A stretch of DNA of 62,879 nucleotides from Deltaproteobacteria bacterium (lineage in GTDB: Bacteria; Desulfobacterota; Syntrophobacteria; BM002): assembly GCA_022340515.1 (NCBI GenBank), contig JAJDNT010000261.1, positions 1 to 62,879 of the forward strand, read 5' to 3'. Positions within the stretch are counted from its first letter, which is position 1. The number at the start of each line of letters is the position of its first letter. Under the pieces are notes generated by a model. The model ran no database searches. It saw only the letters and a list, made by a program, of their open reading frames with translations, and was not told where the DNA came from. The position numbers and the translations under genes were made by a program. Below are positions 778-7,371 of the stretch, one piece after another.

Positions 778-873
778 CGATTGCGGCTTTCACCTAGGGG
801 ATTTGATATTGCCAGAGGTTGAAATCACGAAATTTCCCAATCCGCAATCCGCAAGCCAAAATCAGAAATCTCC

Positions 874-902
874 TTGACTCCGGCAGGGAAGATGGTAATA
901 AT
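874..902 (+). promoter_or_regulatory. Candidate sigma70 promoter of the nikM1 operon
   Basis: TTGACT (874-879), a 17-nt spacer, then AATAAT (897-902), about 150 nt upstream of the nikM1 ATG. Confidence 0.4.
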
Positions 903-962
903 CTCAACTGAAGGTGGGTCGAAGCCCACAGACTAAAATAAGAATTTATTGCTGATAATAAT

Positions 963-1026
963 AGGTCACGAAGGCTTATCAAGGCACCGAAGTGCATTGT
1001 GAAGATAAGTTTCTGTGACCTTTTTT
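963..1026 (+). terminator. Leader stem-loop plus T-run (attenuator-like) just upstream of nikM1
   Basis: AGGTCAC (963-969) pairs with GTGACCT (1015-1021). Inner stem is GGCTTATC/GATAAG, followed by TTTTTT (1021-1026). It ends 28 nt before the ATG at 1054. A paralogous hairpin lies at 5561-5615. Confidence 0.5.
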
Positions 1027-1053
1027 GTTAGTTTCGAAATAGAAAGGTTAGCT

Positions 1054-1668
1054 ATGCATATATCTGAAGGAGTACTTTCTCCACCCGTTCTTGTAGCAGG
1101 GGCAGCCCTCACTGCGGTTGGAGTCGCCATGGGGTTGAAGAAGATGGACAACGAAAAAATCCCCCAGGTGGCGGTATTGACTGCAGCTTTTTTTGTGGCC
1201 TCCCTTATCCGGGTCCCTGTCGGCCCCTCTGCTGTGCATCTGGTTCTGAATGGTCTACTGGGACTTGTACTCGGCTGGGCAGCCTTTCCTGCCATTCTAG
1301 TGGGACTGGCTCTGCAAGCTCTTCTCTTCCAATTTGGAGGTCTCACTACCTTGGGAGTCAACACCTTTATCATGGCCATGCCAGCCATCCTCTGCTATTA
1401 CCTTTTCGGTCGATCCATAACCTCGAAAAACACAGGGATGGCCACAGCTATGGCTTTTAGCTGCGGTTTTTTAGCCATTTTGCTCAGCTCTCTATTACTG
1501 GCCATCTCTCTTATATTCACCGGCGAGTCCTTTGTACAAGCAGCAAAAGTTCTAGTACTGGCCCATCTTCCCGTGATGTTGCTCGAAGGACTAATAGTAG
1601 CTTTATGTCTGGCTTTCCTCACAAAAGTCAAACCCGAGCTCTTGGGAGTTACCCATGCTGCGGGATAG
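1054..1668 (+). CDS. nikM: ECF transporter metal-capture component CbiM/NikM, copy 1
   Basis: The N-terminus MHISEGVLS is the hallmark Met-His N-terminus of CbiM/NikM. The start was moved from the ORF-track 1015 to the in-frame ATG at 1054. Multi-TM protein, followed by the L, Q and O components. Confidence 0.9.
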   Translation: MHISEGVLSPPVLVAGAALTAVGVAMGLKKMDNEKIPQVAVLTAAFFVASLIRVPVGPSAVHLVLNGLLGLVLGWAAFPAILVGLALQALLFQFGGLTTLGVNTFIMAMPAILCYYLFGRSITSKNTGMATAMAFSCGFLAILLSSLLLAISLIFTGESFVQAAKVLVLAHLPVMLLEGLIVALCLAFLTKVKPELLGVTHAAG

Positions 1669-2266
1669 TTACCTCCGCCTCACCCGAGTTGCTGTTTTGC
1701 TATTGGCTCTGGTAATAACTACTTTTTTGACTCTCCCCTCTCGGGTCTGGGCCCATAAGGTCAACGTTTTCGCCTGGGTTGAGGGGGATATGATTTTCGT
1801 TGAAGGTTATTTTCCCGGAGGGAAAAAGGCGCAAAACTCCCTAGTGGAAGTATACAATGGTGCTGGAGCCAAGCTCTTGGAAGGCAGAACAAACCAAAAA
1901 GGTGAATTTTCCTTCGAAATACCTGCCAGGGAAGATCTGAGGATTGTCCTAACTGCCGGCATGGGCCATAAAAACGATTTCACCATACCAGCCGCAGACC
2001 TTGGAGGATCGAAGACATCTGCCCAAGCACCGGTTGTTGAAACAAGTGAGACAGTTGCACCTCTTCCCTCGACAACTGTGGACATGAGCAAGTTGGAGGT
2101 AATGATCGATGAGGCTCTGGACCGAAAGCTCCAGCCGGTGATCAAGCTTATCCGCAGTACCCGAAAAGAGGGACCTGGCCTTACAGAGATAATCGGCGGC
2201 ATAGGATATATTTTTGGCCTTTTTGGCTTGCTCATGTATTTCAAAAGTAGAAACAGAAACAGATAG
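1655..2266 (+). CDS. nikL: NikL-like accessory component (N- and C-terminal TM helices flanking a beta-rich periplasmic domain)
   Basis: Overlaps the nikM1 end by 14 nt. N-terminal TM/signal, a prealbumin-like segment (VNVFAWVEGDMIFVEGYF...) and a C-terminal TM (IIGGIGYIFGLFGLLMYF). The topology matches the NikL partners described for NikM. Confidence 0.6.
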   Translation: MLRDSYLRLTRVAVLLLALVITTFLTLPSRVWAHKVNVFAWVEGDMIFVEGYFPGGKKAQNSLVEVYNGAGAKLLEGRTNQKGEFSFEIPAREDLRIVLTAGMGHKNDFTIPAADLGGSKTSAQAPVVETSETVAPLPSTTVDMSKLEVMIDEALDRKLQPVIKLIRSTRKEGPGLTEIIGGIGYIFGLFGLLMYFKSRNRNR

Positions 2267-2280
2267 TCAGTAAATAGTTG

Positions 2281-2342
2281 GCATAGGGCATAGGGAAAAA
2301 GATTTTACATATACCCTATGCTCCATGCCCCATGCTCCATGC
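2281..2342. repeat. Word-stutter inverted repeat (GCATAGGGCATAGGG ... CCCTATGCTCCATGCCCCATGC) between nikL and nikQ
   Basis: The arms are built from CATAGGG/CATGGAG-type 7-mers and can form a hairpin. Related copies lie at 13951, 18208, 38427 and 62441. Confidence 0.7.
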
Positions 2343-2375
2343 TAACTGAAAGCTGACCGCTGACAGCTAAGAAAG

Positions 2376-3134
2376 ATGCACATCGACAACTTCGCCAGCG
2401 GAGATTCCCTTCTCCACCGTCTTGACCCCCGAGTCAAAATAGTCATAGCCCTGCTTTTTTCCGTAATTGTCGCAGTAGCTGACAGACCCCTCTGTTTAGC
2501 AACGGCTGTTTGTTTTTCCCTCGCTTTACTCCTTCTCTCCAGCCTGTCTTTGAGAGAGGTTTTCTTACGACTTTTGGCGGTGAACGCTTTTATTTTCTTC
2601 CTCTGGCTTTTTTTGCCCTTTACCTATGGTGGGGAAAAACTTTTCAGTATCGGCCCCTTAACTGCCACCCGGGAAGGAATCATCTACGCCCTCCTTATCA
2701 CGGTAAAATCCAACACCATCGTTGTCGCCCTGATCGCGCTCCTTGCCACTACCCCGATTATCACCTTGGGGCATGCCTTGGGCCACCTCTATGTCCCTAG
2801 CAAGCTGATCCATCTCCTATTCTTCACCGTTCGCTACCTGCAAGTCCTTCATTTGGAATATGACCGGCTGCGCGCTGCCATGCGGATTAGAGCTTTCAAA
2901 CCCGGCACCAATTTGCACACCTATAGAAGTTTGGCATACCTCATCGGCATGCTGTTAATTAAGAGTTTTGATCGAGCTGACCGCATCCGCAAGGCCATGC
3001 TCTGTCGAGGATTTCATGGAGAATTTTATCTCCTCAGCCATTTCGAACTGCAAAGAATCGACGTTATCATGCTCTTGATCATGATGCTCGTCGTAGGTGG
3101 TCTGGCATCATTACAATGGATAATTCTGAAATAA
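2376..3134 (+). CDS. nikQ: ECF transporter transmembrane (T) component CbiQ/NikQ
   Basis: 252-aa polytopic protein between the M/L and ATPase genes. The C-terminal region (RAAMRIRAF ... FDRADRIRKAM) is typical of CbiQ. Confidence 0.85.
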   Translation: MHIDNFASGDSLLHRLDPRVKIVIALLFSVIVAVADRPLCLATAVCFSLALLLLSSLSLREVFLRLLAVNAFIFFLWLFLPFTYGGEKLFSIGPLTATREGIIYALLITVKSNTIVVALIALLATTPIITLGHALGHLYVPSKLIHLLFFTVRYLQVLHLEYDRLRAAMRIRAFKPGTNLHTYRSLAYLIGMLLIKSFDRADRIRKAMLCRGFHGEFYLLSHFELQRIDVIMLLIMMLVVGGLASLQWIILK

Positions 3135-3799
3135 TCATAGATCTAAAGGGAGTCTCTTTCGGCTACCACGGCAACCAGTCCCAGCGGCCGGTACTCCATG
3201 AGCTTAATTTGCAAATTAACCGTGGTGAGCGGGTGGGATTGATTGGGCCCAATGGCAGCGGCAAGACCACTCTCTTTCACCTGCTTATGGGTCTGCTAAA
3301 ACCCTCTCAGGGTGAAATAGTAGTCTTCGGCAAGAAGCGCCAACAGGAGAAAGATTTTAGAGAGGTGAGGGAAAAAATAGGCTTGCTTTTTCAGGATGCT
3401 GACGATCAGCTCTTCTGTCCAACAGTAGCGGAGGACGTGGCTTTTGGTCCACTCAATCTCGGCAAGAGCCAGGAGGAGGCCCTGGAAGTCACTCGCCAGG
3501 TGCTCAAGCGTTTGGGCCTCGAGGAATTCAAGGATCGTTTGACTTATAAATTGTCCGGAGGAGAAAAAAGGTTAATCTCACTGGCAACAGTCCTGGCCAT
3601 GCAACCGGAGGTTCTAGTTCTGGACGAACCCACTACAGGGCTGGACGAAGACACGGTGGAACGGCTCATACAAATATTAACAAGTTCGGACTTAACCTAC
3701 CTTATTGCCTCCCACAATAGAGACTTCCTCTCCCGGACCATCGACATTGTCTACCACCTCGGAGGTGGTAAGCTGGAACGCAGCCCCGATATTTCATGA
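3116..3799 (+). CDS. nikO: ECF transporter ATPase CbiO/NikO
   Basis: Walker A GPNGSGKTT, signature LSGGEKRL, Walker B LVLDEPT. Overlaps nikQ by 19 nt. Confidence 0.9.
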   Translation: MDNSEIIIDLKGVSFGYHGNQSQRPVLHELNLQINRGERVGLIGPNGSGKTTLFHLLMGLLKPSQGEIVVFGKKRQQEKDFREVREKIGLLFQDADDQLFCPTVAEDVAFGPLNLGKSQEEALEVTRQVLKRLGLEEFKDRLTYKLSGGEKRLISLATVLAMQPEVLVLDEPTTGLDEDTVERLIQILTSSDLTYLIASHNRDFLSRTIDIVYHLGGGKLERSPDIS

Positions 3800-5345: not shown

Positions 5346-5464
5346 GGTGCATACTAAACAGCAATCCTGCCAATGGATGGTGCGAATCATGTGCTTTGTG
5401 GAGTAGCTTCCCCGTGGCCTAGGTCTCTAAAATATTTTTGGGGAAACTCCTGTGGATTTGTCCG

Positions 5465-5494
5465 TTGACAATGAGGTAAAAAATTTAGTATAAG
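5465..5494 (+). promoter_or_regulatory. Candidate sigma70 promoter of the nikK-nikM2 operon
   Basis: TTGACA (5465-5470), an 18-nt spacer, then TATAAG (5489-5494). Confidence 0.45.
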
Positions 5495-5560
5495 AACGCT
5501 AGTTCGAGGACAGCACCTCGATAATATTTCCTCAAGCAGACATATATAATACAGAAGAAT

Positions 5561-5615
5561 AGGCCACGAAGGTCTACCTTTAACCAGTAGGGGATAGACC
5601 AAGTGGCCTTTTTTT
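5561..5615 (+). terminator. Leader stem-loop plus T-run (attenuator-like) just upstream of nikK
   Basis: AGGCCAC (5561-5567) pairs with GTGGCCT (5603-5609). Inner stem is GGTCTA/TAGACC, followed by a T7 run. It ends 22 nt before the ATG at 5638 and has the same architecture and 5' flank (AATAGGYCACGAAGG) as 963-1026. Confidence 0.5.
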
Positions 5616-5637: not shown

Positions 5638-6399
5638 ATGAAAAGATCTGTAGGAACCGTTTTGCTGGCTCTGGGTTTGCTCTTTTTGGCAGTTCCAACT
5701 GCAAGGGCTCATTTCGGCATGATTATTCCTTCGGACGAGATGGTCATGAAAGGTGAAAGCAGTGATGTGGCCTTACAAATCATGTTCTGGCATCCCTTTG
5801 AGGGCACGGGGATGGATTTGGTTAAACCGGCAGAGTTCGGGGTTGTTGCTGAAGGGCAGAAAGAAGACTTGCTTGCAACTCTCACCCCTCAGAAGCTCAA
5901 GGGGCGCGATACCTGGAAGACCAATTACAAAATTAAACGTCCTGGCATCTATGTTTTTTACCTGGTACCCCAGCCATATTGGGAACCTGCGGAAGACTGC
6001 TACATTGTGCACTACACCAAGACAGTGGTAGCCGCTTACGGCGACGACGAGGGTTGGGATGAACCCATTGGCCTGAAGACCGAGATTGTCCCTCTGAGCA
6101 AACCCTTCGGACTGTATGCAGGCAATGTCTTTCAAGGTGTAGTTTTGCTCAATGGCAAGCCGGTGCCCGGAGCTGAAGTGGAAGTGGAGTATTTCAATGT
6201 TGGAGGTAAGTATTCTGCTCCCTCGGACTACATGGTAACCCAGACCATCAAAGCCGATCCAAATGGCGTCTTTACATACGGTGTTCCCACAGCCGGTTGG
6301 TGGGGTTTTGCCGCCCTGAGCACTGATGATCAGCAGCTCAAGGGAAAGGCTGTGGAAATCGGCGCAGTGTTATGGGTGAATTTCCACGAGATGAAGTAG
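5638..6399 (+). CDS. nikK: Periplasmic NikK/CbiK-like (DUF4198) metal-binding component
   Basis: AGGAGG lies 6 nt before the ATG at 5638. The signal peptide ends ARA-HFGMIIP, and the secreted beta-rich domain is typical of the DUF4198 partners of NikM. Confidence 0.75.
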   Translation: MKRSVGTVLLALGLLFLAVPTARAHFGMIIPSDEMVMKGESSDVALQIMFWHPFEGTGMDLVKPAEFGVVAEGQKEDLLATLTPQKLKGRDTWKTNYKIKRPGIYVFYLVPQPYWEPAEDCYIVHYTKTVVAAYGDDEGWDEPIGLKTEIVPLSKPFGLYAGNVFQGVVLLNGKPVPGAEVEVEYFNVGGKYSAPSDYMVTQTIKADPNGVFTYGVPTAGWWGFAALSTDDQQLKGKAVEIGAVLWVNFHEMK

Positions 6400-6408
6400 G
6401 ATAGGGCT

Positions 6409-7023
6409 ATGCATATTTCTGAGGGAGTACTCTCCGCCCCCGTTTTGGTCACGGGTGCAGCTCTCACAGCAGTCGGTGTTGCGGTGGGGTTGAGGAAAAT
6501 GGACTCCGAGAAGGTGCCACTGGTGGGGGTACTCTCTTCGGCATTTTTTGTTGCCTCACTCATCCATGTGCCGGTGGGTCCGTCTGCTGTGCATCTGGTT
6601 CTGAATGGTCTTTTGGGCTTGCTCCTCGGCTGGACTGCATTTCCGGCAATTCTTGTAGGCCTCGCCTTACAGGGGGTGCTCTTTCAGTTTGGCGGCCTGA
6701 CCACTCTGGGTATCAACACCTTCAACATGGCCATGCCCGCCGTTTGTTGTTATTACCTATTCGCAAGAACTATCGCTCACAAGCCCAGCGGTTTGGCTGT
6801 TGGACTCGCCTTCGCTTGCGGCTTTCTGGCGATTTTCTTGAGTGCTATCCTGGTTGCCCTCTCTTTGCTCTTTACCGGCGAATCATTTCTGGCGGCAGCC
6901 CAGGTTCTGGTAGTAGCGCACTTGCCGGTCATGTTCATAGAGGGCGTTGTCTCCGCCTTCTGCCTGGGGTTTCTCAAGAAGGTCAAGCCAGAGATCTTGC
7001 AGGTAACCCATGCGAGTGGATAG
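6409..7023 (+). CDS. nikM: ECF transporter metal-capture component CbiM/NikM, copy 2
   Basis: Starts MHISEGVLSAPVLVTGAALTAVGV and is collinear and highly similar to copy 1 over its whole length. It begins 9 nt after nikK. Confidence 0.9.
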   Translation: MHISEGVLSAPVLVTGAALTAVGVAVGLRKMDSEKVPLVGVLSSAFFVASLIHVPVGPSAVHLVLNGLLGLLLGWTAFPAILVGLALQGVLFQFGGLTTLGINTFNMAMPAVCCYYLFARTIAHKPSGLAVGLAFACGFLAIFLSAILVALSLLFTGESFLAAAQVLVVAHLPVMFIEGVVSAFCLGFLKKVKPEILQVTHASG

Positions 7024-7035
7024 TATGGGAAGACA

Positions 7036-7371
7036 ATGACAAAACTTGCTTCTTCTTCAACTAGAATTCAGCTGGCTGGAAAATGGTCTCCTGAAGACGA
7101 AGGGCGACTCCTGCAGGTTATACAAAAACTTGCCGATGACTTGACTGAAAAGGCCCAGCTACTCAGAAGCCTTTGCAGCGAAACTGGCGCTAAAGGTGGT
7201 TTTAATAACCCTGTCTTTTTTTGTGACGAGAATAATTGTCCTTACCGGAAGCAGTTCAAAAAGATTATTTCAGACACCATAGAACAATTAGAGAAAAGCA
7301 GAAAATCGTTTAAGTCCAAGCAATTGGAGGCGCTGAGGAAGAGACTTTGCCAGGAACTTGTTCGGATGTGA
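7036..7371 (+). CDS. Hypothetical 111-aa soluble, helix-rich protein co-oriented with nikK-nikM2
   Basis: Starts 12 nt after the nikM2 stop. Lys/Glu-rich and probably coiled-coil. No recognisable family. Confidence 0.5.
   Translation: MTKLASSSTRIQLAGKWSPEDEGRLLQVIQKLADDLTEKAQLLRSLCSETGAKGGFNNPVFFCDENNCPYRKQFKKIISDTIEQLEKSRKSFKSKQLEALRKRLCQELVRM

What the first reader, a model, noticed from the sequence alone, without database searches (positions are those of the whole stretch)
874..1053. Paralogous terminator-type leader in front of nikM1: candidate metal-responsive attenuator
Seen directly: both nickel/cobalt ECF loci are preceded by a sigma70-like promoter, a short first hairpin (GGTGGG-TCGAAG-CCCAC here; TCGAGG-ACAGCA-CCTCGA at the second locus), an AT-rich linker, and then a long stem-loop ending in a T-run 22-28 nt before the start codon.
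- The two terminator stems share the 5' string AATAGGYCACGAAGG.
- They differ by compensatory changes: AGGTCAC/GTGACCT here against AGGCCAC/GTGGCCT at 5561-5609.

Established: cbiMNQO and nik operons are usually controlled by B12 riboswitches or NikR. I could not find a B12 box in either leader, and no nikR gene is in the window.

Inference: this is a shared cis-acting attenuator (a riboswitch or a protein/sRNA-dependent one), possibly sensing Ni/Co status.

A weaker shared box lies upstream: TTGGGGAAACTCCTGTGGATTTGTCC at 5438-5463, against the reverse complement of 817-841. It may be an operator.
Basis: partly seen in the sequence, partly recalled or inferred. Interest (0 to 1): 0.6.

Follow-up and report, generated by a model that had tools for sequence, protein, structure and literature searches.

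The report
New nickel-uptake leader RNA motif
The two leaders are members of a widespread, so far unannotated RNA element (a small GCC-ACGAA-GGY hairpin built into a transcription terminator) that sits in front of nickel/cobalt and other metal-uptake genes in bacteria that lack the usual nickel repressor NikR, so it is probably a new RNA-level switch for metal uptake.

Summary
Both leaders have a promoter, a 5' hairpin, an A/U-rich linker and a strong terminator sharing AATAGGYCACGAAGG with a compensatory C-G/U-A change. Only the "weaker operator box" is chance-level.

It is not a local paralogy but a family.
- The own genome has four copies. A covariance model finds it in 19 of 22 genomes of the family.
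- The core GCCACGAAGG...GTGGCYTTT occurs in 85 of 401 sampled genomes of the phylum (model R2: 55 of 151), in 22 of 181 of a second phylum and in 2 of 181 of a third.
- No Rfam family matches. I found no paper describing it.

Downstream genes are a metal-uptake regulon: CbiM/NikM, NikK (DUF4198), NikL-like, CbiQ/O, TonB-dependent receptors, TonB/ExbB, FecB-type and NikA-type binding proteins, CobN-like chelatase and His-rich metal-binding proteins.

Presence is strongly anti-correlated with NikR in two phyla (odds ratios 0.08 and 0.04).

The invariant part is GCC-ACGAA-GGY inside the terminator's 5' arm. It can fold into its own small hairpin, which excludes the terminator. A similar GAA-loop hairpin lies about 30 nt upstream.

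Best reading: a new transcription attenuator for nickel/cobalt uptake. The effector (protein, metal or ligand) is unknown. The B12 riboswitch, NiCo riboswitch and ANTAR were tested and rejected.

The parts
874..902 (+). Promoter of leader 1: -35 TTGACT (874-879), 17-nt spacer, -10 AATAAT (897-902)
   Evidence: Consensus scan, 10 of 12 matches. The same -35/-10 is kept in orthologous cbiM leaders L013, L017, L022, L023, L182-L185.
914..930 (+). HP1 of leader 1: 5'-proximal hairpin GGUGGG-UCGAAG-CCCAC (with a U-G closing pair, a CGAA tetraloop)
   Evidence: RNAfold. An upstream hairpin with a GAA-containing loop is found in 47 of 80 instances against 8.7 expected. The linker length clusters at 26-35 nt.
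931..961 (+). A/U-rich single-stranded linker
   Evidence: Unpaired in the centroid fold. Variable in sequence among relatives.
962..978 (+). HP2, the conserved core: UAGGUC-ACGAA-GGCUUA, a local 6-bp hairpin with an ACGAA pentaloop (968-972). It lies wholly inside the 5' arm of the terminator and is the candidate antiterminator or sensor hairpin.
   Evidence: It folds on its own once the 3' arm is left out. GCC/GGY and the GAA of the loop are invariant or nearly so in 111 diverse instances. The fourth pair is kept in 77% (GC 39, AU 22, GU 21). The stem is longer than in flank-swapped controls.
963..1026 (+). Intrinsic terminator of leader 1: hairpin 963-1021 with apical CGAA loop, then U-run 1021-1026
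   Evidence: RNAfold, -43 kcal/mol for the leader, z = -3.2. P1 covaries across the family. Model hits: R1 67.9 bits, R2 42.9 bits.
1054..3799 (+). Controlled operon 1: cbiM/nikM (1054-1668), NikL-like 203-aa protein (1655-2266), cbiQ (2376-3134), cbiO (3116-3799)
   Evidence: Pfam CbiM 1.4e-58, CbiQ 1.4e-37, ABC_tran 3.3e-34.
5465..5494 (+). Promoter of leader 2: -35 TTGACA (5465-5470), 18-nt spacer, -10 TATAAG (5489-5494)
   Evidence: Read from the sequence. CTTGACAWTGAG and TATA-type -10 boxes are conserved in nikK-type leaders.
5504..5521 (+). HP1 of leader 2: UCGAGG-ACAGCA-CCUCGA
   Evidence: Conserved with ACAGYA/AUAGUA loops in L007, L009, L010, L011, L019, L020 and in leader 3 of the own genome.
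5560..5576 (+). HP2 of leader 2: UAGGCC-ACGAA-GGUCUA
   Evidence: Same core as at 962-978.
5561..5615 (+). Intrinsic terminator of leader 2: hairpin 5561-5609, then U-run 5609-5615
   Evidence: RNAfold z = -4.3. R1 92.1 bits.
5638..7371 (+). Controlled operon 2: nikK-like DUF4198 (5638-6399), second cbiM/nikM (6409-7023), 111-aa ORF (7036-7371)
   Evidence: Pfam DUF4198 1.5e-64, CbiM 1.3e-58.

Best explanation
The region is one copy of a conserved cis-acting leader RNA that controls metal uptake genes, chiefly nickel/cobalt, by transcription attenuation.

How it most likely works:
1. Transcription starts at its own sigma-70 type promoter.
2. The RNA first forms a 5' hairpin with a GAA-type loop (HP1).
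3. About 30 nt later it makes the invariant element GCC-ACGAA-GGY. This can fold into a small hairpin (HP2).
4. Both strands of HP2 are also the 5' arm of a long terminator hairpin followed by a U-run.
5. By default the far more stable terminator wins, and transcription stops 20-90 nt before the first gene.
6. Read-through needs HP2, probably together with HP1, to be held by an effector during the short time before the 3' arm emerges.

The element sits before Ni/Co importers and other metal-uptake genes, and it occupies genomes that lack NikR. The signal is therefore most likely nickel (or Ni/Co) status.

Shown here: the family, its anatomy, its gene association, the NikR complementarity and the mutually exclusive folds.

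Inferred: that termination is regulated, that HP2 is the antiterminator or sensor, and that the signal is nickel. The effector is not identified. It could be an apo-form RNA-binding protein, a metal ion bound directly, or another ligand.
For: Family and significance:
- R1 finds 1-4 copies in 19 of 22 genomes of the family and hits in 5 further families of the class.
- The exact core pattern is in 85 of 401 genomes of the phylum, against 3 hits of the backward-read control pattern. R2 hits 55 of 151.
- The same pattern is in 22 of 181 genomes of a second phylum.

Leader position: TTGACA-type promoters lie 40-110 nt upstream, and genes start 0-90 nt after the U-run.

Regulon:
- Of 96 instances, about 70 are followed on the same strand by a protein matching my reference set of uptake genes (blastx, E<=1e-4). 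These are CbiM, DUF4198, NikL-like, CbiQ/O, DUF3842 followed by CbiM, TonB-dependent receptors, TonB, Peripla_BP_2 with FecCD, SBP_bac_5, FmdE, DUF3786 and a flavin reductase.
- Most of the remaining ones encode ExbB, DUF3450, outer-membrane channels, CobN or a MinD/CooC-type ATPase.
- In the second phylum the downstream genes include HMA-His-rich-YHS proteins.

NikR complementarity:
- NikR_C is in 0 of 22 genomes of the family and 2 of 122 of the class, but in 191 of 401 of the phylum.
- Motif against NikR: pattern 8/77/183/133, OR 0.076; R2 10/45/62/34, OR 0.12.
- Second phylum: 1/21/88/71, OR 0.038. The one exception has nikR next to the motif.
- The own genome needs nickel: it has a NiFeSe hydrogenase.

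Structure:
- Terminator P1 covaries.
- GAAGG never varies, although its 3' partner varies or is unpaired in 20-40% of MFE folds.
- HP2 forms when the 3' arm is absent. Pairing is 73% against 70.0+-1.0 in shuffles, and the covariation score exceeds all 500 shuffles.
- In the variants L223:194 and L224:2759 the HP2 sequence is kept, but only its 3' half enters the terminator.
- GAA loops also mark the terminator apex: NGAA in 20 of 40 motif terminators against 6 of 69 other terminator-like hairpins of the same loci.
Against: - Regulated read-through is therefore not shown.
- HP2 has only 3 invariant pairs and is much weaker than the terminator.
- Its covariation support is modest. The instance set was largely collected with a pattern that fixes the core.
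- The col12/col24 association is not significant on its own (p = 0.17).
- HP1 is absent or different in about 40% of instances.
- The NikR anti-correlation is not corrected for phylogeny. 8-10 genomes have both.
- Some downstream genes have no obvious nickel link: thiD in one family, a methyltransferase, DUF3786.
- TonB/FecB-type systems would equally fit another metal or a metallophore.
Confidence: 0.6

Rival explanations
1. Protein-dependent antitermination. An unidentified RNA-binding protein, active when nickel is scarce (for example an apo form), binds the two similar GAA-loop hairpins HP1 and HP2 and so keeps the terminator from forming. This would resemble ANTAR, BglG/LicT or apo-aconitase logic.
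For: - Two similar hairpins at a preferred spacing of 26-35 nt.
- In L329, HP1 is an exact second copy of HP2.
- The default fold is the terminator, so an activator of read-through is needed under shortage.
- The conserved part is a short sequence in a loop, as is typical of protein sites.
Against: - No candidate protein was found.
- ANTAR is absent from many motif-bearing genomes: f15 0/4, f14 0/4, f16 0/2, f6 0/3, and G005 of the same genus.
- No regulator gene is consistently next to the motif.
- Presence in at least two phyla with the same core would need a co-distributed protein.
Confidence: 0.33
2. A true riboswitch with a terminator-embedded aptamer. The HP1/HP2 pair, perhaps with the GAA apex loop, binds Ni2+/Co2+ or a small metabolite directly and shifts the balance between HP2 and the terminator.
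For: - The architecture parallels the HMP-PP (thiS) riboswitch: a strong terminator with unusually conserved nucleotides and a competing small fold (PMC6478431).
- It also parallels guanidine-II: two similar small hairpins with conserved loops.
- The motif spans phyla with an invariant core.
- The terminator apical loop is unusually conserved.
Against: - A metal that stabilises HP2 would switch uptake ON with more metal, which is the wrong logic.
- An OFF switch would need a stable ligand-free antiterminator, and none is seen.
- Very few conserved positions, and no junction or pseudoknot was detected.
- Nothing was tested biochemically.
Confidence: 0.27
3. No conditional switch. The leader would be a constitutive attenuator or a small RNA of about 110-130 nt with leaky read-through. 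The conserved sequence would then serve RNA processing, stability, chaperone binding or trans-acting base pairing.
For: - Promoter, 5' hairpin, A/U-rich linker and a U-tailed terminator make the classic layout of an Hfq/ProQ-type sRNA.
- The terminator is strong in all copies.
Against: - It is always directly in front of genes on the same strand, with too little room (0-90 nt) for a separate promoter.
- The gene association is specific and it is complementary to NikR.
- The 5' arm is conserved independently of its pairing partner.
Confidence: 0.1
4. A DNA operator. The inverted repeat GCCACG...CGTGGC would be bound by a dimeric transcription factor acting as a roadblock.
For: - Near-perfect inverted repeat.
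- The half-site GGTCACG resembles the ModE half-site cgGTCACg listed for Desulfovibrio in PMC545781.
Against: - Half-site spacing varies from 15 to 45+ nt.
- A U-run always follows.
- Inner stems covary as RNA helices.
- GAAGG is conserved on one arm only.
- The site lies 70-110 nt downstream of the promoter.
Confidence: 0.04

Closest known systems
HMP-PP riboswitch (thiS motif), a terminator-embedded aptamer (PMC6478431)
   Same: - A strong intrinsic terminator carries unusually conserved nucleotides.
- A small competing fold shares nucleotides with the terminator stem.
- The default state is termination.
- The loop at the terminator tip is unusually conserved.
- Tandem copies occur.
   Different: - No sequence or model match: Rfam scans gave nothing.
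- Different conserved nucleotides (GCC-ACGAA-GGY).
- An additional upstream hairpin.
- A metal-uptake regulon instead of thiamin genes.
- Ligand unknown and no biochemical test.
Guanidine-II riboswitch (mini-ykkC)
   Same: Two small, similar hairpins with conserved loops that start with ACG, joined by a variable linker. The second hairpin overlaps the expression signal.
   Different: - Loops here are ANGAA pentaloops or NGAA tetraloops, not ACGR.
- The CG dinucleotide needed for loop-loop pairing is not conserved in HP1.
- The second hairpin overlaps a terminator, not a ribosome-binding site.
- Different genes. No Rfam match.
ANTAR-type two-hairpin antiterminator RNAs (EutV, NasR, AmiR targets)
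   Same: - Two tandem small hairpins, with the second overlapping the terminator's 5' arm.
- Read-through by stabilising the hairpins.
- HP1 of the nikK-type leaders has an AxxGxx hexaloop.
   Different: - HP2 is a pentaloop with G at position 3.
- The linker is about 30 nt.
- ANTAR proteins are absent from many genomes that carry the motif.
- The hexaloop A1/G4 rule is recalled from memory, not checked in a paper here.
NikR repressor with its operator (the usual nickel-uptake control)
   Same: It controls the same kinds of genes: nikMNQO/nikKMLQO and TonB-dependent receptors (PMC545781). Its phyletic distribution is complementary to that of the motif.
   Different: NikR is a DNA-binding protein acting at the promoter. 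Here the conserved element is transcribed and ends in a terminator, and no NikR is encoded in the genome.
NiCo (czcD) riboswitch, RF02683
   Same: A metal-related cis-regulatory RNA of anaerobes.
   Different: - NiCo is a four-way junction that turns ON efflux genes.
- It gave no match in the leaders or the genome.
- The motif here precedes uptake genes.

Membership tests
Cobalamin riboswitch (RF00174 and variants) | Match to the covariance model (B12 box and multi-helix aptamer of about 190 nt) | tested here: not met
   No hit in either leader at E<=10. The same model finds 4 matches elsewhere in this genome (3 above the family's cut-off), one before a BtuF-like binding protein with FecCD. 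Only about 60 nt lie between the start of transcription and the terminator.
NiCo riboswitch (RF02683) | Match to the covariance model (four-way junction) | tested here: not met
   All 4227 Rfam models were scanned over both leaders at E<=10 and over 20 diverse loci at E<=0.1. The genome search was negative, but its control rang nowhere.
HMP-PP (thiS) riboswitch | Match to the Rfam model; association with thiS/HET-P genes | tested here: not met
   No Rfam match. The genes are metal-uptake genes. thiD lies downstream only in one family, as a neighbour of nikK.
Guanidine-II (mini-ykkC) | Two hairpins with ACGR tetraloops | tested here: not met
   The HP2 loop is ACGAA (5 nt). HP1 loops are AGAA, CGAA, UGAA, AAGAA and AUGAA. 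No Rfam match.
ANTAR target RNA | Co-occurrence with an ANTAR-domain protein | tested here: not met
   ANTAR is in 61 of 151 genomes. It is absent from motif-rich families (f15 0/4, f14 0/4, f16 0/2, f6 0/3) and from G005 of the same genus.
ANTAR target RNA | Two hexaloops with A at position 1 and G at position 4 (rule recalled from memory) | tested here: not met
   The HP2 loop is ACGAA in 108 of 111 instances. Only HP1 of the nikK-type leaders fits (ACAGCA).
Intrinsic (Rho-independent) terminator | G+C-rich hairpin directly followed by a U-run | tested here: met
   P1 is paired in 96 of 96 instances. There are compensatory changes at 6 of 15 pairs.
Intrinsic (Rho-independent) terminator | Termination actually occurs at the U-run | not testable with these tools
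Riboswitch (in general) | Direct, selective ligand binding by the RNA that changes expression | not testable with these tools
   Needs in-line probing or transcription assays.
NikR-operator control | nikR gene in the genome | tested here: not met
   NikR_C is in 0 of 22 genomes of the family and 2 of 122 of the class.

The most novel reading that the evidence does not exclude
A new class of RNA sensor, built from two minimal GAA-loop hairpins with the second embedded in a terminator, is the nickel-responsive regulator of metal uptake in NikR-less members of at least two bacterial phyla. It would sense nickel status itself: either as the first riboswitch that governs transition-metal import, or through a new family of metal-responsive RNA-binding proteins.
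Probability: 0.45. Interest if true: 0.9.

Novelty: new variant of a known kind. Interest (0 to 1): 0.8.

Why it matters
Nickel import is thought to be controlled by DNA-binding repressors, with NikR the best known. The known transition-metal riboswitches switch on efflux or detoxification.

About half of the sampled genomes in two anaerobe-rich phyla lack NikR yet carry nickel importers and nickel enzymes. How they regulate uptake is open.

A short, easily synthesised RNA element would fill that gap. It marks Ni/Co ECF importers, TonB-dependent receptors and metallophore-type ABC systems, and it excludes NikR phyletically.

It would also:
- annotate a regulon, including several domains of unknown function (DUF3842, DUF3786, DUF4198, FmdE-like);
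- give a compact test case for terminator-embedded sensing.

It is directly testable with in vitro transcription and in-line probing.

Tried and rejected
1. Known RNA families. Rfam was scanned at gathering score on the whole window, at E<=10 on both leaders and at E<=0.1 on 20 diverse loci. Nothing matched.

2. B12 control. Rejected: canonical cobalamin riboswitches sit elsewhere in the same genome, before btuF-like genes.

3. ANTAR. Rejected on loop geometry and phyletic pattern.

4. DUF3842 as a possible cognate factor. In the own genome it sits next to birA, not near the motif. Left open but unlikely.

5. Conserved internal loop, K-turn or loop-E site in the terminator stem. The GAAGG segment is paired in 60-80% of folds and unpaired otherwise, so there is no constant motif.

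6. Loop-loop (kissing) complementarity of HP1 and HP2. The loops are alike, not complementary. The CG dinucleotide is not conserved in HP1.

7. Chance level and not conserved.

Only 3 of the first 120 loci were real.

9. Full-text search for the core sequence found only unrelated primers.

10. Looking up the window's DUF4198 (NikK-like) protein to name the organism found nothing. Titles of three public hits say only 'Deltaproteobacteria bacterium'.

12. The fourth own-genome copy (contig 62) is degenerate (GAAAA for GAAGG). It lies 430 nt before thiD with no nikK remnant.

Full report
**1. Observation**

Leader 1 reads as follows.
- Promoter TTGACT (874-879), 17 nt, AATAAT (897-902); 10 of 12 consensus matches.
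- Hairpin GGUGGG-UCGAAG-CCCAC (914-930).
- An A/U-rich linker.
- A long hairpin 963-1021 followed by U6 (1021-1026), 27 nt before the cbiM ATG at 1054.

Leader 2 has the same plan: TTGACA 5465-5470, TATAAG 5489-5494, hairpin 5504-5521, terminator 5561-5609 with U7, and ATG at 5638.

Both leaders fold much better than dinucleotide shuffles (z = -3.2 and -4.3).

The shared string AATAGGYCACGAAGG is exact at 960 and 5558. The C-G/U-A exchange is a real compensatory change.

- Locus 1: CbiM, a 203-aa NikL-like protein, CbiQ, CbiO.
- Locus 2: DUF4198 (NikK type), a second CbiM and a 111-aa ORF.

No Rfam family reaches its threshold in the window, and nothing sensible appears at E<=10 in either leader.

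The proposed upstream 'operator' box is no better than chance and is not conserved.

**2. It is a family, not two paralogues**

The 15-mer has a third exact copy in the same genome. That copy precedes a Peripla_BP_2 binding protein and a FecCD permease. It shares promoter, first hairpin and core with leader 2 although the genes are unrelated.

A covariance model built from 20 leaders (R1) gives these results.
- It finds the element in 19 of 22 genomes of the window's family, 1-4 copies each.
- It finds a degenerate fourth copy in the own genome.
- Across the class it hits 27 of 122 genomes, including weaker hits in five other families that all keep the core RGCC-RYGAA-GGYY plus a terminator.

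The exact pattern GCCACGAAGG-N15-45-GTGGCYTTT occurs as follows.
- 85 of 401 genomes sampled across the phylum, while the backward-read control pattern hit three times.
- 22 of 181 genomes of a second phylum, that of a genome titled Candidatus Manganitrophus.
- 2 of 181 genomes of a third phylum, that of a genome titled Acidobacteriota.

A second model built from 111 diverse instances (R2) hits 55 of 151 genomes, up to 7 copies each.

Twenty diverse loci gave no Rfam match on the motif. A full-text search for the core sequence and a 2024 review of bacterial metal sensing gave no description of it.

**3. What it precedes**

In the window's family the downstream genes are cbiM/nikM or nikK-cbiM operons. 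One case is the binding-protein/FecCD system.

Ninety-six phylum-level instances were checked by blastx against a reference set whose family labels rest partly on Pfam scans and partly on my reading of the sequences.
- About 70 are followed on the same strand by CbiM, DUF4198, NikL-like, CbiQ/O, DUF3842 then CbiM, TonB-dependent receptors, TonB, FecB-type binding proteins with FecCD, a NikA-type SBP_bac_5 protein, FmdE, DUF3786 or a flavin reductase.
- Most of the rest encode ExbB, DUF3450, outer-membrane channels, a CobN-type chelatase or a MinD/CooC-type ATPase.

In the second phylum the genes include an HMA-domain protein with a His-rich tail and a YHS domain, His-rich membrane proteins and ExbB-ExbD-TonB.

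Genes start 0-90 nt after the U-run, and a TTGACA-type promoter lies 40-110 nt upstream. The element is therefore a leader, not the 3' end of a preceding gene.

**4. Link to nickel**

The own genome has no NikR_C domain. It does encode a NiFeSe hydrogenase.

NikR counts:

| Group | Genomes with NikR_C |
|---|---|
| Window's family | 0 of 22 |
| Class | 2 of 122 |
| Phylum sample | 191 of 401 |
| Second phylum sample | 89 of 181 |

Motif against NikR (motif+NikR+ / motif+NikR- / motif-NikR+ / motif-NikR-):

| Set | Counts | Odds ratio |
|---|---|---|
| Exact pattern, window's phylum | 8 / 77 / 183 / 133 | 0.076 |
| Model R2, window's phylum | 10 / 45 / 62 / 34 | 0.12 |
| Exact pattern, second phylum | 1 / 21 / 88 / 71 | 0.038 (p = 3.5e-6) |

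- Families f15, f17, f6, f4 and f29 have the motif and no NikR.
- Families f7, f18, f22, f25, f27 and f28 have NikR and almost no motif.
- The single genome of the second phylum with both has nikR about 500 nt upstream of the motif.

These tests are not corrected for relatedness. The pattern does recur in many families and in two phyla.

B12 is unlikely as the signal. The same genome has canonical cobalamin riboswitches, one directly before a BtuF-like protein with a FecCD permease.

**5. Anatomy and alternative folds**

The outer terminator helix is paired in all instances and shows compensatory changes. Examples are CAC/GUG to CGC/GCG, CAU/AUG and CAG/CUG. The pair next to the U-run is A-U in 46, G-C in 37 and G-U in 25 instances.

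The segment GAAGG never varies. Yet its 3' partner is UUU, UUC, CC with bulges, or nothing, and it is unpaired in 20-40% of minimum-energy folds. The terminator alone therefore does not explain its conservation.

Without the 3' arm, the conserved string folds on itself: (U)AGGYC-ACGAA-GGCUU(A).

Across 111 instances:
- the pairs C-G, C-G and G-Y are essentially invariant;
- the next pair is kept in 77% (G-C 39, A-U 22, G-U 21);
- the loop is A-C-G-A-A (A 108, C 108, G 110, A 111, A 111);
- the covariation score beats all 500 shuffles.

The stem is longer than in chimeras with swapped flanks: 4.36 against 3.97 +- 0.09.

In two variant copies the hairpin sequence is kept but only its 3' half belongs to the terminator. 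That is the textbook antiterminator/terminator overlap.

An upstream hairpin with a GAA-containing loop (AGAA, CGAA, UGAA, AAGAA, AUGAA, ACGAA) is present in 47 of 80 instances against 8.7 expected, usually 26-35 nt before the core. In one genome it is an exact second copy of the core hairpin.

The nikK-type leaders of the window's family, including leader 2, have an ACAGYA hexaloop there instead.

The terminator tip is also unusual. Among 4-nt tips, NGAA occurs in 20 of 40 motif terminators against 6 of 69 other terminator-like hairpins in the same loci.

**6. Mechanism**

The terminator is far more stable than the core hairpin, so the default outcome should be termination. Uptake genes must be on when the metal is scarce.

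The simplest reading is that something present under shortage holds the core hairpin, probably together with the first hairpin, while the polymerase transcribes the 30-50 nt to the 3' arm.

- That points to a protein active in its metal-free form.
- A ligand-binding RNA of the terminator-embedded type also remains possible. In the HMP-PP riboswitch a strong terminator is overridden in a narrow kinetic window (PMC6478431).
- Direct metal binding that favours the terminator cannot be excluded.

I could not identify the effector.
- ANTAR proteins bind two-hairpin antiterminators, but they do not co-occur with the motif, and the loops do not fit the hexaloop rule as I recall it.
- No regulator gene is a constant neighbour.

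**7. Comparison and novelty**

In design it is closest to terminator-embedded riboswitches, to the two-hairpin guanidine-II riboswitch and to ANTAR targets. In biological role it is closest to NikR. It is a member of none of these; see the membership tests.

I rate it a new variant of a known kind: a new leader RNA class working by termination control. The most novel reading is that it is the nickel sensor of NikR-less lineages.

**8. Limits**

- No transcript or biochemical evidence.
- Organism names are hidden. Three public hits are titled 'Deltaproteobacteria bacterium'.
- Most instances were collected with a pattern that fixes the core. This limits what can be said about variation inside it.
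- The universe of the 151-genome sample used for the R2 table was inferred from the handle numbers. This is consistent.

Noticed in passing
window 838-873, and the same place in L013, L017, L022, L023, L181-L185: Directly upstream of the -35 box of the cbiM-type leaders lies a run of phased A-tract repeats (AATCCGC AATCCGC AAGCCAA AATCAGA AATCTCC). The sequence differs between species, but the 7-8-nt AAATC-type periodicity is kept. It could be an UP-element, bent DNA or a protein-binding array.
   Followed up: partly
own genome, contig 62: 3994-4098 (L180 1495-1599): A fourth, degenerate copy of the leader (core GGCCACGAAAACUUACC). It lies 430 nt before thiD with no nikK remnant in between. 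In relatives the order is leader, nikK, thiD (L161, L165). In another genus the leader lies 62 nt before thiD (L186).
   Followed up: partly
own genome, contig 240: 739-927 (-) and 1107-1357 (+); contig 18: 8033-8152 (-): Canonical cobalamin riboswitches (108.6, 74.3 and 45 bits). The one at 1107-1357 precedes a BtuF-like binding protein and a FecCD permease. Corrinoid uptake therefore has its own, separate RNA switch in this genome.
   Followed up: partly
own genome, contig 188: 17103-17258 (L188 1483-2175, - strand): By my reading, a 230-aa GAF-ANTAR regulator next to a glutamate-synthase-like gene. Only the ANTAR hit was tested. It is probably nitrogen-related and unrelated to the leader.
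   Followed up: no
own genome, contig 299: 4795-6270 (-): NiFeSe hydrogenase large subunit with one in-frame TGA, presumably selenocysteine.
   Followed up: no
L208, L209, L213, L230, L232, L234, L235, L237, L243, L255: DUF3842 (about 140 aa) is the first gene behind the motif in many genomes and is usually followed by a CbiM-type gene. In the own genome DUF3842 sits next to birA instead (L289). This family of unknown function looks linked to ECF-type metal or vitamin uptake.
   Followed up: partly
L211 1489-1612, L214 1489-1610, L223, L232, L235, L236 (genome), L243: Tandem or repeated copies of the motif in one leader or operon. One example is a second unit with core ACC-ACGAA-GGU, 5 nt after the first terminator. 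Up to 7 copies occur per genome.
   Followed up: no
L238, L253, L271, L285: A 520-590-aa secreted protein made of DTNGDGRMD-type repeats follows the motif in four genomes. Only L238 was scanned in Pfam: a faint FG-GAP_3 hit (E = 0.0036, below cut-off).
   Followed up: no
window 5460-5480 and L001, L004, L005, L007, L011, L019, L021: The -35 region of the nikK-type leaders is conserved beyond the hexamer (TCTTGACAWTGAGG). A DNA-level site overlapping the promoter cannot be excluded.
   Followed up: no
L329 (G585 contig 17: 838-1065 and 1574-1627): This is the only genome of the second phylum with both NikR and the motif. There, nikR lies about 500 nt upstream of the motif, which precedes a methyltransferase and an outer-membrane protein.
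   Followed up: no
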